A stretch of DNA of 47,748 nt from Promethearchaeota archaeon (GTDB taxonomy: Archaea; Asgardarchaeota; Lokiarchaeia; Sigyniarchaeales; SOKP01): the NCBI GenBank assembly GCA_019057795.1, contig JAHLWS010000013.1, positions 1-47,748 of the forward strand, written 5' to 3'. Positions within the stretch are counted from its first letter, which is position 1. Each line of letters starts with the position of its first letter. The position numbers were made by a program, and so were the translations under genes. Positions 30,409 through 31,656 of this stretch are shown here, in pieces. The notes under the pieces are model-generated. The model searched no databases. It was not told the DNA's origin and saw only the letters and a list, made by a program, of their open reading frames with translations.

Positions 30409-31656
30409 TTGACATTCACACAGATTGATTATCATATTACACATTCAGATCAACTTAGTAGAGTTGGTTATATCAAGTTGAAAAATGGGAAAAAGATCGA
30501 AACACCCATAAATTGGGTTGGTCTTAGTGTTGCCGAATCTTCAGATTTTCAATTTAATGCATTCAAAAAAGCAGGAGTAACTAGTTTTCTAAGTAATGTA
30601 TATGATTTAAAATATCAAGATAAAAAAGGGATTAGAGATGATTTAATTAACCGCCTTGTTGATGAAGGATTAAACCATAAAATTGATAGCGGGGGATTCC
30701 AACTAATGAAGCAACAAATTACAGGGAAAAAGAAATTTGATTTAAATCCCGAAATTGTATATGAGATTCAAAAATCAGTTCCGTGCGATATAGGAGTAGT
30801 TTTGGATGTTCCTATCGGAACTGAAAGTAGAGAAGATAAAGTCATAAACAAAATTGATAAAACACTACAAAATTTAGAATCATATTTAAAAATTTACGAT
30901 AACGAAGAGGATTCTTTCACAATCTTACCTGTTATTCATGGTCATGATATTAAGAAACTGGACTATGCAATCAATGGACTCGAAAATATAATTGGAGAAT
31001 TACCCAAGGCATTAGGAATAGGTAGCCTTGTACCAATGGTTAAAGCAGTGAAAAACTCGAGCTCTACTGGAGGGAAAAAAAATTTTGTTAATATCCTCAT
31101 GTATTTAAGAAATAAATTACCTAAAACCTTTATCCATGCTTTTGGTATCGGGGGGACTATGGCTTATTTTGCATATCTGTGTGGTGTTGACAGCATTGAT
31201 TCAAATGGTTGGATATTAAAAGCAAGTAGAGGTGTAATTCAGTTACCGGGTACCTCTGATAGGTTTTTACGAAAAAAATCTCATAATCGTCCTTATCTTT
31301 TAACTAATCGAAAGATAAGGGGGACCAAAAAAACAATTAATGAAATAGATCTTTTTATGAAATGCAAATGTCCAATCTGTGAAGAGTATTGTACTGATGG
31401 AATTTGGAGTCAACACGACTGGGTAAGGAAACGAGATGATTTTGATCAATACACTGTAGAATCAAGAATGAAAAGAGTTGTTCATAACTTATGGTTATAT
31501 CAAACTGAACTTAAACTTATAAAACAAGCAATAAAGGATAAGACGTCTATTGATTTTATAGGAAAAAGGCTCCAAAACTCAATATATAAAGGTTTATTTC
31601 AAGAAATCGTTAAAAAAATGGATTCCGATCAAACCAATTTATCAAATTTTCTATAA
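30409..31656 (+). CDS. tgt: Guanine transglycosylase of the TGT/DpdA superfamily (archaeal-type catalytic barrel only)
   Basis: R.G....ETP, DSGGFQ, LDVP, PVIHG, GIGSLVP, HAFG, GVDSIDS, Zn site CKCPIC...HNL. No PUA domain; ends QTNLSNFL. Confidence 0.92.
   Translation: MTFTQIDYHITHSDQLSRVGYIKLKNGKKIETPINWVGLSVAESSDFQFNAFKKAGVTSFLSNVYDLKYQDKKGIRDDLINRLVDEGLNHKIDSGGFQLMKQQITGKKKFDLNPEIVYEIQKSVPCDIGVVLDVPIGTESREDKVINKIDKTLQNLESYLKIYDNEEDSFTILPVIHGHDIKKLDYAINGLENIIGELPKALGIGSLVPMVKAVKNSSSTGGKKNFVNILMYLRNKLPKTFIHAFGIGGTMAYFAYLCGVDSIDSNGWILKASRGVIQLPGTSDRFLRKKSHNRPYLLTNRKIRGTKKTINEIDLFMKCKCPICEEYCTDGIWSQHDWVRKRDDFDQYTVESRMKRVVHNLWLYQTELKLIKQAIKDKTSIDFIGKRLQNSIYKGLFQEIVKKMDSDQTNLSNFL

What the first reader, a model, noticed from the sequence alone, without database searches (positions are those of the whole stretch)
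30409..31656. TGT lacks tRNA-binding domains and ends in a PCNA-interacting PIP box
Seen: the 415-aa protein keeps both catalytic Asp motifs (DSGGFQ, GVDSID), the Zn site and an archaeal-type pocket (GSLVP, HAFG). It has no C-terminal PUA region and ends in QTNLSNFL (31630-31653), matching Q-x-x-L-x-x-F-hydrophobic. Established: archaeosine TGT uses C-terminal domains to bind tRNA, and terminal PIP boxes dock archaeal DNA enzymes on PCNA. Inference: a DNA-acting transglycosylase derived from arcTGT that modifies newly replicated DNA at the clamp, possibly distinct from canonical DpdA.
Basis: partly seen in the sequence, partly recalled or inferred. Interest (0 to 1): 0.88.

Follow-up and report, generated by a model that had tools for sequence, protein, structure and literature searches.

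The report
Clamp-docking DNA-type guanine transglycosylase, Asgard archaeon
An Asgard archaeon carries an extra, short guanine-swapping enzyme in a defence island, next to the genes that make its modified base, and it ends in a conserved peptide of the kind that docks proteins on the DNA sliding clamp, so it probably writes 7-deazaguanine marks into DNA while riding on the clamp.

Summary
ORF 30409-31656 is a 415-aa TGT catalytic domain. It has invariant catalytic Asp residues and a Zn site, no C1/C2/PUA domains, and the tail QTNLSNFL.

The genome is archaeal, with one PCNA. It has a separate true arcTGT (TgtA) and an ArcS-like gene, so this copy is an extra paralog.

The gene sits 2 nt behind a YaaA/DpdC-like DUF6884 gene. 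The genome's only queC, queD and queE, two DNA methylases and a nuclease-like gene lie nearby. This module recurs on other Asgard contigs beside different defence modules.

By HMM and fold the protein is closer to arcTGT than to bacterial DpdA. It belongs to a large clade of short TGTs.

The tail behaves like a short linear motif. In the closest clade, 14 of 15 members keep Q-x-x-[IL]-x-x-[FY] while the other tail positions vary. Across 38 clusters, 17 carry a terminal PIP-like motif against 1.4 expected. In this genome the strict motif also ends PolD-DP2, FEN1 and Nre. A complex model puts the tail in the canonical PCNA pocket (0.71 versus 0.00 in controls).

No DpdB was found. Activity on DNA and clamp binding are inferred, not shown.

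The scan noted PIP-like tails on DpdA in other genomes before. I found no paper describing it.

The parts
30409..31656 (+). Short TGT paralog (415 aa): catalytic TIM-barrel plus Zn subdomain only. Proposed DNA 7-deazaguanine transglycosylase.
   Evidence: PF01702 scores 74.8 bits over residues 17-389. The AF2 model has pLDDT 90.9. VIA Z is 33.9 to arcTGT 1iq8 and 22.7 to DpdA 7ui4.
30685..30702 (+). DSGGFQ motif (D93 = general acid/base Asp)
   Evidence: D93, S94, G95 and F97 are invariant in 40 homologs. The motif aligns with the arcTGT DSGSFQ.
31183..31200 (+). GVDSID motif (D261/D264; nucleophile Asp region)
   Evidence: G259, S262 and D264 are invariant and D261 is at least 90% conserved. 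The motif aligns with arcTGT GVDLFD.
31210..31344 (+). Family-specific, basic, conserved insertion (residues 268-312; QLPG..DR..R..R..E). It has about 23 residues more than arcTGT. Candidate DNA-contact element (inference).
   Evidence: Gaps in the alignment to 1iq8. W268, Q278, L279, P280, G281, R285, R294, L297 and E312 are invariant.
31363..31485 (+). Zn site C319-x-C321-x-x-C324 ... H359
   Evidence: All four ligands are invariant.
31630..31653 (+). C-terminal PIP-box-like motif Q408-T-N-L-S-N-F-L415
   Evidence: Read directly from the sequence. pLDDT is below 50 for 409-415. 14 of 15 clade-A members keep Q..[IL]..[FY]. In the complex model, residues 406-412 and 414-415 contact PCNA residues 41, 44-48, 127-135, 231-232 and 248-253; ipSAE is 0.71 against 0.00 in controls.
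29873..30406 (+). DUF6884 protein (177 aa), 2 nt upstream of the TGT. It is a small YaaA/DpdC-like partner, proposed to tailor the preQ0 nitrile in DNA.
   Evidence: PF21818 scores 58.6 bits and PF03883 gives a weak hit. PADLOC DpdC models score up to 36.9 bits and PDC-M57A 60 bits. The AF2 model has pLDDT 91.7, and its best PDB match is YaaA 5caj at Z 9.2. The gene is adjacent to the TGT in L015, L018 and L019.
22689..23459 (+). QueC (preQ0 synthase); the only convincing QueC in the genome
   Evidence: TIGR00364 scores 233.8 bits against a cut-off of 150.3. The whole-genome search finds this copy at 245.9 bits and otherwise only 24- and 21-bit partial hits.
23470..23925 (-). QueD-like 6-carboxytetrahydropterin synthase
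   Evidence: PF01242 scores 85.8 bits. It is the only copy found by tblastn. The L018 homolog is 99% identical.
24094..24957 (-). Radical-SAM protein, QueE-like (weak match)
   Evidence: PF04055 hit. The best NCBIfam hits are QueE models, all far below their cut-offs. Homologs are linked to the TGT in L018 (92% identity) and L017 (88%).
24985..26166 (-). 393-aa protein of the module.
   Evidence: No Pfam, PADLOC or NCBIfam hit. A 76%-identical homolog sits next to the MTases, DUF6884 and TGT in L019.
26214..27080 (-). N6/N4 DNA methyltransferase (288 aa)
   Evidence: PF01555 scores 85 bits. It is conserved beside the TGT in L018 (96%) and L019 (75%).
27272..28594 (+). N6/N4 DNA methyltransferase paralog (440 aa)
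   Evidence: PF01555 scores 110.5 bits. It is 47% identical to the 288-aa MTase. It is conserved in L018 and L019.

Best explanation
The gene encodes a DpdA-like enzyme that acts on DNA. It is a stand-alone TGT catalytic domain. I propose that it exchanges guanine in double-stranded DNA for preQ0, which the adjacent QueC, QueD and QueE-like genes would supply. The co-translated DUF6884 partner (YaaA/DpdC-like) would then tailor the nitrile, probably to the amide dADG.

The resulting mark would serve as the 'self' label of a restriction-modification-like defence island.

Bacterial DpdA needs the ParB-like ATPase DpdB to get onto DNA. This archaeal family instead carries a disordered C-terminal PIP box (Q408-x-x-L411-x-x-F414-L415). 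I propose that this tail docks the enzyme on PCNA, so that it scans or marks DNA from the sliding clamp, most plausibly just behind the replication fork.

Shown here: the fold, intact catalytic and Zn residues, absence of tRNA-binding domains, a separate housekeeping TgtA, the gene context and its recurrence, motif conservation, and a control-passing PCNA docking model.

Inferred: DNA as substrate, preQ0 as the inserted base, dADG as the product, real PCNA binding, and the timing at replication.
For: Identity and integrity of the enzyme:
- PF01702 hit. VIA Z 33.9 to arcTGT and 31.9 to bTGT.
- D93, D133, D264 and the Cys3His site are invariant.

Not the tRNA enzyme:
- There are no C1/C2/PUA domains.
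- The genome has its own TgtA above the equivalog cut-off, plus an ArcS-like gene.
- The gene is accessory. No close homolog was found in the other 200 genomes of the phylum searched, including 16 of the same genus.

DNA-modification context:
- There is a 2-nt gap to a DUF6884 protein that resembles DpdC/YaaA.
- The genome's only queC, queD and queE lie nearby. Same-genus relatives carry a different, fused QueC or none.
- The module QueCDE, MTase, MTase, DUF6884, TGT recurs in L018 and L019. There it lies next to a 1800-aa DEAD helicase that hits DruE, BrxH and DpdJ models.
- In other clades the TGT pairs with ArcS-like DUF5591 genes and with HerA/NurA operons.
- TGT components of BREX-related HerA systems are described in PMC12839542.

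PIP box:
- The strict terminal motif ends 20 of 3789 ORFs, against 4.6 expected.
- Those 20 include PolD DP2 (QQQLSNFF), FEN1, Nre, an OLD nuclease and a DNA MTase.
- In clade A the Q, hydrophobic and aromatic positions are 100% conserved in 14 of 15 members, while the x positions and the linker are 21-50% conserved.
- Across 38 clusters at 70% identity, 17 carry the relaxed motif against 1.43 expected, and 5 carry the strict motif against 0.05 expected.
- Two tandem distant paralogs in genome G086 both end in strict PIPs.
- The tail has pLDDT below 50.
- Complex prediction gave ipSAE 0.71 (three runs, 0.71-0.73), with the best of 3 controls at 0.00. That mark was reached by 58 of 80 solved complexes and 2 of 110 mismatched pairs. 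The runs agree in at least 64% of contacts, and partner pLDDT is at least 56. Contacts fall on the PCNA hydrophobic pocket, the interdomain connector loop and the C-tail.

No DpdB:
- No ParB-like or DpdB hit was found among the 30 window ORFs scanned.
- DpdB is required by bacterial DpdA (PMC10164549).
Against: - Nothing here measures activity on DNA, the inserted base or PCNA binding.
- By HMM and fold the protein is closer to tRNA arcTGT than to proven DpdA.
- The adjacent queCDE are the genome's only copies, so they must also feed tRNA archaeosine. They are therefore not proof of a DNA pathway.
- The PIP-PCNA docking is a textbook interface, so the pass may reflect likeness to solved complexes.
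- The relaxed motif is unspecific. Its background is 6.6% of ORFs, and even the genome's own TgtA tail (...ELFQFLKEE) fits it.
- About half of the 70% clusters lack a terminal motif by my patterns, and the trait needs 19 changes on the tree.
- Homologs are related, so the binomial P values overstate the case.
- One homolog locus (L015) has a ParB_N/DUF488 gene 4 kb away.
Confidence: 0.6

Rival explanations
1. It is a DNA-acting DpdA-like transglycosylase, as above, but the C-terminal motif is not a PCNA ligand. The tail would instead bind another component of the system, or simply cap the last helix.
For: The relaxed motif is common in this K/N/I/F-rich proteome, at 6.6% of ORF ends. Many family members lack it. 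DSSP extends the last helix to residue 412. The complex score may come from memory of solved PIP-PCNA structures.
Against: The system partners change between clades: DUF6884 versus DUF5591, and DEAD helicase versus HerA/NurA versus BREX-like genes. The motif persists through these changes, and PCNA is the constant candidate partner. Conservation is restricted to the Q, hydrophobic and aromatic positions. The same motif ends known PCNA clients in this genome. Both kinds of control in the complex test scored 0.00.
Confidence: 0.2
2. It is an RNA enzyme. It would be a second tRNA or rRNA guanine transglycosylase, for example for another position or a subset of tRNAs, using preQ0 from the neighbouring queCDE. 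The defence-island location would be incidental.
For: The best HMM and structure matches are tRNA enzymes: TIGR00432 at 90 bits and 1iq8 at Z 33.9. The flanking queCDE are the only copies in the genome and must also serve archaeosine.
Against: There are no RNA-binding C-terminal domains. A full TgtA and an ArcS-like gene are present elsewhere. No close homolog was found in 16 same-genus genomes. The gene is always embedded with DNA MTases, nuclease or helicase modules and a DpdC-like gene. A PIP tail points to DNA. It clusters with the short TGT radiation that includes phage DpdA1, not with arcTGTs.
Confidence: 0.1
3. It is a TGT-fold enzyme with a non-nucleic-acid target. It would resemble CBASS Cap10, which attaches a deazaguanine-type base to a protein, and would act as a regulator of the adjacent defence system.
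For: Cap10 (9ntn_B) is among the structural matches at Z 21.7. The gene lies in a defence island.
Against: The Cap10 match is much weaker than the matches to arcTGT and bTGT. No CD-NTase or CBASS genes were found among the scanned neighbours. The DpdC-like partner and the PIP tail fit a DNA role.
Confidence: 0.03

Closest known systems
Bacterial DpdA of the Dpd restriction-modification system (Salmonella Montevideo; PDB 7ui4), working with DpdB and DpdC
   Same: Both are stand-alone TGT catalytic domains without tRNA-binding domains, with a conserved Asp pair and Zn site. Both are paired with a YaaA/DUF328-type partner (DpdC-like), linked to preQ0 synthesis genes and embedded with helicase or nuclease defence genes.
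   Different: NF041059 scores only 16.5 bits against a cut-off of 200, and VIA Z is 22.7 at 18% identity. No DpdB (ParB-like ATPase) was found. The DpdC-like partner is about half the size (177 aa). The host is archaeal. There is a C-terminal PIP box, which bacterial DpdA cannot use because bacteria lack PCNA.
Archaeosine tRNA-guanine transglycosylase (arcTGT/TgtA; P. horikoshii 1iq8)
   Same: It is the best sequence and structure match: phmmer E 2e-15, and VIA Z 33.9 with rmsd 3.3 over 352 residues at 24% identity. The catalytic Asp residues, the GxGxxVP pocket strand and the Zn site are the same.
   Different: TIGR00432 scores 90 bits against a cut-off of 350. It lacks the C1/C2/PUA domains that hold tRNA. 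It has about 23 extra basic residues at 268-312. The genome has its own TgtA. In the tree the family lies outside the arcTGT branch.
Viral DpdA subfamilies DpdA1-DpdA4 (phage 9g, CAjan, HVTV-1 and others)
   Same: They are short TGTs that insert 7-deazaguanines into DNA after replication (bioRxiv 10.1101/2023.04.13.536721). Phage 9g DpdA1 falls within the same short-TGT radiation in my tree, on a long branch.
   Different: phrog_887 scores only 31 bits, and there is no DUF6610 (DpdA4) hit. tblastn against 50,697 phage records finds only STSV1, STSV2 and STSV4 TGTs at about 23% identity. Only one IMG/VR contig carries a relative. This copy is cellular and sits in a defence island.
TGT components of HerA/FtsK-centred BREX-related 'BRC' systems (PMC12839542)
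   Same: These are TGT homologs proposed to mark self DNA inside composite defence systems that lack DpdB and DpdC. Distant members of this short-TGT clade sit in TGT-NurA-HerA operons with a protein of about 1420 aa. The window also has BrxL- and PglZ-like genes next door.
   Different: The window's TGT is paired with DUF6884, two MTases and queCDE, and no HerA was found in the ORFs scanned. The BREX-like genes of the window have no counterparts in homologous loci. The passages of that paper that I searched do not mention a clamp-binding tail.
Archaeal PIP-box clients (FEN1, PolD DP2, Nre/NreA) and, by analogy, eukaryotic DNMT1-PCNA (the latter from my own knowledge)
   Same: The C-terminal Q-x-x-[LI]-x-x-F-[FLI] motif lies on a disordered tail. 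It is near-identical to this genome's PolD DP2 tail (LSNF), and it docks in the same PCNA pocket in the model.
   Different: I found no paper holding both DpdA and PCNA, or a transglycosylase with a PIP box in archaea. The enzyme class is new for this docking mode.

Membership tests
TGT superfamily (PF01702) | Pfam score above the gathering cut-off and a TIM-barrel TGT fold | tested here: met
   74.8 bits against a cut-off of 26.3. VIA Z 33.9, 31.9 and 28.7 to arcTGT, bTGT and QTRT2.
TGT superfamily (PF01702) | Catalytic Asp pair, substrate Asp and Cys3His Zn site | tested here: met
   D93, D133, D264 (D261 near-invariant), C319, C321, C324 and H359 are invariant in 40 sequences.
arcTGT / TgtA (TIGR00432 equivalog) | Equivalog HMM score of at least 350 bits | tested here: not met
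   90.2 bits. The gene on C53 scores 447.3 bits.
arcTGT / TgtA (TIGR00432 equivalog) | C-terminal tRNA-binding domains (C1/DUF5591, C2, PUA) | tested here: not met
   No PF17884, PF14810 or PF01472 hit. The protein ends about 25 residues after the catalytic-domain helices.
arcTGT / TgtA (TIGR00432 equivalog) | Exchanges G15 of tRNA | not testable with these tools
   Needs a biochemical assay.
Bacterial DpdA (NF041059 / PADLOC DpdA) | Equivalog HMM score of at least 200 bits | tested here: not met
   NF041059 scores 16.5 bits. PADLOC DpdA scores 18.6 bits.
Bacterial DpdA (NF041059 / PADLOC DpdA) | Works with the ParB-like ATPase DpdB | tested here: not met
   No ParB_N or DpdB hit among the 10 flanking ORFs (PADLOC) or the 30 window ORFs (Pfam). 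The requirement for DpdB is documented in PMC10164549.
Bacterial DpdA (NF041059 / PADLOC DpdA) | Adjacent DpdC (DUF328/YaaA family) and linkage to preQ0 synthesis | tested here: met
   The DUF6884 partner has DpdC hits and YaaA as its best fold match at Z 9.2. QueC, QueD and a QueE-like gene lie within 7 kb and are syntenic in L018. The partner is a shorter relative, not an equivalog.
Bacterial DpdA (NF041059 / PADLOC DpdA) | Inserts preQ0 into DNA | not testable with these tools
   Needs LC-MS of DNA or an in vitro exchange assay.
Viral DpdA4 (DUF6610, PF20314) and phage DpdA (phrog_887) | Profile match to the subfamily | tested here: not met
   No PF20314 hit at E <= 0.01. phrog_887 scores only 31.3 bits over residues 92-297.
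PIP-box PCNA clients | Q-x-x-[ILM]-x-x-[FY]-[FYLI] consensus at or near a terminus, on a disordered segment | tested here: met
   The tail is QTNLSNFL at 408-415. pLDDT is below 50 for 409-415.
PIP-box PCNA clients | Motif conserved in orthologs while the flanks vary | tested here: met
   14 of 15 clade-A members keep it, with key positions 100% conserved and x positions 21-50%. 17 of 38 clusters carry it against 1.43 expected.
PIP-box PCNA clients | Docks into the PCNA hydrophobic pocket and interdomain connector loop | tested here: inconclusive
   This is a model only. ipSAE is 0.71 against 0.00 in controls, with contacts at PCNA residues 41, 44-48, 127-135, 231-232 and 248-253. The pass may reflect likeness to solved PIP complexes.
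PIP-box PCNA clients | Physical binding to PCNA | not testable with these tools
   Needs a pull-down, ITC or a structure.

The most novel reading that the evidence does not exclude
In Asgard archaea the sliding clamp PCNA takes the place of the ParB-like clamp DpdB. A DpdB-less, PIP-tailed DNA transglycosylase would ride on PCNA left behind the fork and re-establish 7-deazaguanine 'self' marks on newly replicated DNA. This would be a replication-coupled maintenance-modification system, analogous to DNMT1-PCNA in eukaryotes, and it would be found in the archaeal lineage closest to eukaryotes. The interchangeable partners (DUF6884/DpdC-like or DUF5591/ArcS-like) would then decide which deazaguanine derivative becomes the mark.
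Probability: 0.4. Interest if true: 0.82.

Novelty: new variant of a known kind. Interest (0 to 1): 0.7.

Why it matters
7-deazaguanine DNA modification is established in bacteria (Dpd) and in phages and archaeal viruses. A cellular archaeal system, and the way the transglycosylase gets onto DNA without DpdB, are not described in the papers I could search.

A conserved clamp-docking tail gives a concrete, testable mechanism, namely PCNA-stimulated base exchange. It would add a hypermodifying base-exchange enzyme to the list of PCNA clients. It would also link an R-M-type self mark to replication in Asgard archaea.

Practically, it defines a family of more than 70 members, with signature motifs and a syntenic module (queCDE, two MTases, DUF6884, TGT). 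That module could be expressed to look for dPreQ0 or dADG in DNA.

Tried and rejected
- tRNA and Rfam scans of the window found nothing.
- tblastn against phage records gave only weak STSV hits at about 23% identity.
- phmmer against PDB sequences found only arcTGT, not DpdA.
- Foldseek 'pdb' was flooded by Z. mobilis TGT entries, so I used VIA wide instead.
- I could not obtain a bacterial DpdA sequence by reference, so the tree lacks bDpdA. HMM and structure scores stand in for it.
- The tree is a quick LG+G4 run. Phage 9g DpdA1 and the STSV2 TGT sit on long branches, and their placement is unsure.
- The listing of cluster members gave no taxonomy for distant members, so I could not test whether bacterial members lack the motif.
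- The relaxed motif alone was rejected as evidence. Its background is 6.6%, and it also fits the genome's TgtA tail.
- Mapping the relaxed motif on the tree needs 19 changes. Either the motif is labile or my pattern is noisy.
- The viral-contig scan gave one relative, without a PIP-like tail, on a contig with Hef-like archaeal genes.
- Whether the window's BREX-like genes work with the TGT remains open. They have no homologs in syntenic loci.
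Full report
**What is there.**
- ORF 30409-31656(+) starts at TTG, and homologs share the same N-terminus. It encodes 415 aa.
- Pfam finds only the TGT domain, at residues 17-389, with 74.8 bits.
- NCBIfam ranks it nearest to arcTGT (TIGR00432, 90 bits), far below the 350-bit equivalog cut-off. Bacterial DpdA scores almost nothing (NF041059, 16.5 bits; PADLOC DpdA, 18.6 bits).
- An alignment of 40 family members shows D93 (DSGGFQ), D133 (LDVP), H177, G203-P209 (GIGSLVP), H243-G246 (HAFG), D264 (GVDSID) and the Zn ligands C319, C321, C324 and H359 as invariant.
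- The AF2 model is confident (pLDDT 90.9). It is a single catalytic domain whose last residues, 409-415, have low confidence.
- Against one representative per PDB cluster, the best matches are arcTGT 1iq8 (Z 33.9, rmsd 3.3, 352 residues aligned, 24% identity), bacterial TGT (Z 31.9), QTRT2 (Z 28.7), DpdA 7ui4 (Z 22.7, 18% identity) and Cap10 (Z 21.7).
- Relative to arcTGT the family has about 23 extra residues, mostly basic and strongly conserved, within 268-312.
- The protein ends in QTNLSNFL, encoded at 31630-31653.

**The organism and its housekeeping pathway.**
- The genome is 4.95 Mb in 87 contigs, with 31.4% GC. It is archaeal, with one PCNA gene.
- Named homologs come from Helarchaeota, Promethearchaeota and Lokiarchaeota, that is, Asgard archaea.
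- A true TgtA lies on contig C53 (447 bits against a cut-off of 350). An ArcS-like protein with DUF5591, C2 and PUA domains lies on C78.
- The window's TGT is therefore an extra paralog, not the only or a split arcTGT.
- It is accessory. Apart from this genome, none of the other 200 species genomes of the phylum searched has a close homolog, including all 16 of the same genus. Eleven of them have short TGTs at 28-41% identity.

**Context.**
- The TGT begins 2 nt after a 177-aa DUF6884 gene. That protein hits DpdC models and weakly hits YaaA/DUF328. Its AF2 model (pLDDT 91.7) matches E. coli YaaA best (5caj, Z 9.2), followed by AF0587 (2q07, Z 8.0).
- Within 7 kb lie QueC, QueD and a QueE-like radical-SAM gene, two paralogous N6/N4 DNA methylases and a 393-aa protein.
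- These queC, queD and queE genes are the only copies found in the genome. Eight of 16 same-genus genomes carry a different, fused QueC of about 530 aa, and the other eight have none detected. The preQ0 genes therefore appear to have travelled with the island.
- The same module recurs on other contigs. L018 has QueC (96% identity), QueD (99%), QueE (92%), both MTases, DUF6884 (90%) and the TGT (76%). L019 has the 393-aa homolog (76%), both MTases, DUF6884 and the TGT (70%).
- In L019 the next gene is a DEAD helicase of about 1800 aa that hits DruE, BrxH and DpdJ models; L018 has a comparable 1775-aa DEAD helicase. Conserved proteins of about 210, 990, 285 and 300 aa follow.
- In the window the neighbours are instead BrxL- and PglZ-like genes. 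These have no counterparts in the homologous loci.
- In the clade at about 47% identity, the partner is an ArcS-like DUF5591 protein instead of DUF6884. Further clades and distant members sit in TGT-NurA-HerA operons with a protein of about 1420 aa.
- TGT homologs in HerA-centred BREX-related systems have been described and proposed to mark self DNA (PMC12839542).
- All of this points to DNA modification inside defence systems.

**Phylogeny.**
- I built a quick ML tree of 101 TGTs. It includes the family, distant short TGTs, this genome's TgtA, two long arcTGTs, E. coli Tgt, phage 9g DpdA1 and the STSV2 TGT.
- The short TGTs separate from arcTGT and bTGT with SH-aLRT 92. The window's family forms a 41-row clade with support 99.
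- Phage DpdA1 and STSV2 fall in the short-TGT radiation, but on long branches.
- Bacterial DpdA could not be included.
- 'Derived from arcTGT' is therefore plausible from similarity, but the tree does not demonstrate it.

**The PIP box.**
- In this genome the strict pattern Q..[ILMV]..[FYW][FYWLIMV], followed by at most 3 residues, ends 20 of 3789 ORFs. From its internal frequency, 4.6 are expected (Poisson P about 1e-7).
- Ten of the twenty were identified. They include PolD DP2 (…QQQLSNFF), FEN1 (…QVSLDSFFK), Nre (…QRTIDNFL), an OLD nuclease, a DNA methylase, two DUF72 proteins and a deoxynucleoside kinase. In this organism the pattern therefore marks real clamp clients, and the TGT tail (QTNLSNFL) nearly copies the PolD tail.
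- In the closest clade (64-92% identity), 14 of 15 C-terminally complete members keep Q-x-x-[IL]-x-x-[FY]. The three key positions are 100% conserved, while the x positions and the preceding linker reach only 21-50%. This is the signature of a short linear motif.
- Across 38 clusters at 70% identity, 17 carry a terminal [ILMV]xx[FYW][hydrophobic] motif against 1.43 expected from tail shuffles, and 5 carry the strict motif against 0.05 expected. The relatedness of the sequences inflates the P values.
- In the clade at about 47% identity, MAFFT aligns an internal LSDF motif with the window's LSNF, and many members add a second terminal motif, KKIADFL.
- Two tandem, distant short TGTs in another Asgard genome both end in strict PIPs, QSKILQYL and QTKLISYV.
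- The motif is not universal in the family. The relaxed pattern alone is unspecific (6.6% background), and the TgtA tail also fits it.

**Docking model.**
- I modelled PCNA (41-row alignment) with TGT residues 366-415 (40-row alignment).
- ipSAE was 0.71, 0.73 and 0.71 in three runs. The best of three controls scored 0.00.
- That mark was reached by 58 of 80 solved complexes and 2 of 110 mismatched pairs.
- The runs agree in at least 64% of contacts, and partner pLDDT is at least 56.
- Contacts involve TGT residues 406-412 and 414-415, and PCNA residues 41, 44-48, 127-135, 204-206, 231-232 and 248-253. These are the hydrophobic pocket, the interdomain connector loop and the C-terminal strand.
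- PIP-PCNA complexes are textbook structures, so this shows likeness, not proof of binding.

**Mechanism proposed.**
- Bacterial DpdA is inactive without DpdB. DpdB is a ParB-like ATPase whose dimer is modelled to encircle DNA (PMC10164549).
- No DpdB or ParB was found in the window.
- I propose that in this archaeal family PCNA provides the DNA-bound platform. The PIP tail would tether the catalytic domain to the clamp. The basic insertion at 268-312 may contact DNA. preQ0 from QueCDE would be exchanged for guanine at target sites, and DUF6884 would convert the nitrile, probably to the amide as DpdC does.
- The self mark would then be read by a variable effector module.
- The steps after 'tether' are inference.

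**Novelty.**
- DNA transglycosylases of the DpdA type and PIP-box docking are each well known.
- I found no paper that combines them. The DpdA literature I read lists bDpdA and DpdA1-4, without a cellular archaeal, clamp-tailed family.
- Earlier notes of this scan report PIP-like tails on DpdA-like genes in other genomes (e1-5560265, e1-2806622, e1-2481926) and an MTase-DUF6884-TGT operon elsewhere (e1-5561195). These are leads, not independent evidence, but they suggest that the theme is general.
- I rate the finding a new variant of a known kind.

Noticed in passing
L010:1-915 (G000 C65:120656-121570): A 304-aa N6/N4 DNA methyltransferase elsewhere in the genome also ends in a strict PIP motif (…DQLKIDNFI). 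This is a second DNA-modifying enzyme in the genome with a clamp-docking-type tail.
   Followed up: partly
L007:1-801, L013:1-897, L014:1-744, L005:1-1755: Two DUF72 proteins, a deoxynucleoside-kinase-like protein and an OLD-family nuclease end in strict terminal PIP motifs. Together with PolD DP2, FEN1 and Nre, they give a genome-wide list of candidate PCNA clients.
   Followed up: partly
window 22689-24957: The island's queC, queD and queE-like genes are the only copies found in this genome. Same-genus relatives have a different, fused QueC of about 530 aa or none. tRNA archaeosine synthesis here may therefore depend on a mobile defence island.
   Followed up: partly
window 31777-32529 and 24985-26166: The 250-aa protein downstream of the TGT is a paralog of the C-terminal roughly 240 aa of the 393-aa protein (35% identity over 242 aa). 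It ends in KKQFSDFYC, which is only loosely PIP-like.
   Followed up: partly
L041:2006-3960 (phage 9g): In phage 9g the dpdA gene (gp03) lies directly beside the phage's own sliding-clamp gene (gp02) and its DNA polymerase (gp01). This gene-order hint suggests that clamp association of DpdA may extend beyond archaea.
   Followed up: no
L023:241-2655 (genome G086): Two tandem short TGT paralogs (392 and 389 aa) both end in strict PIP motifs, QSKILQYL and QTKLISYV.
   Followed up: partly
L017:2480-3622, L016:11321-12136, L020:8286-9804: In other clades the TGT's neighbour is a DUF5591 (ArcS-like) protein instead of DUF6884. The DUF6884 model matches both YaaA (Z 9.2) and AF0587 (2q07, Z 8.0). 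The two kinds of partner may therefore share a fold and differ in the deazaguanine derivative they make.
   Followed up: partly
L018:8098-9416: The homolog of the 440-aa methylase is split into two ORFs (8098-8970 and 9057-9416). This suggests a frameshift or a decaying gene in that contig.
   Followed up: no
window 34001-44000: GC falls to 20-25% across the BrxL/PglZ-like operon, against 31% for the genome. Its genes have no homologs in the loci syntenic for the TGT module. It looks like a separately acquired block.
   Followed up: partly
window 22689-31656 versus L018:4625-11248: The similarity is mosaic. QueC, QueD, QueE, the 288-aa MTase and DUF6884 are 90-99% identical between the two loci, the 440-aa MTase homolog is 86% and split there, and the TGT is only 76%. 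This suggests recombination or faster evolution of the TGT.
   Followed up: no
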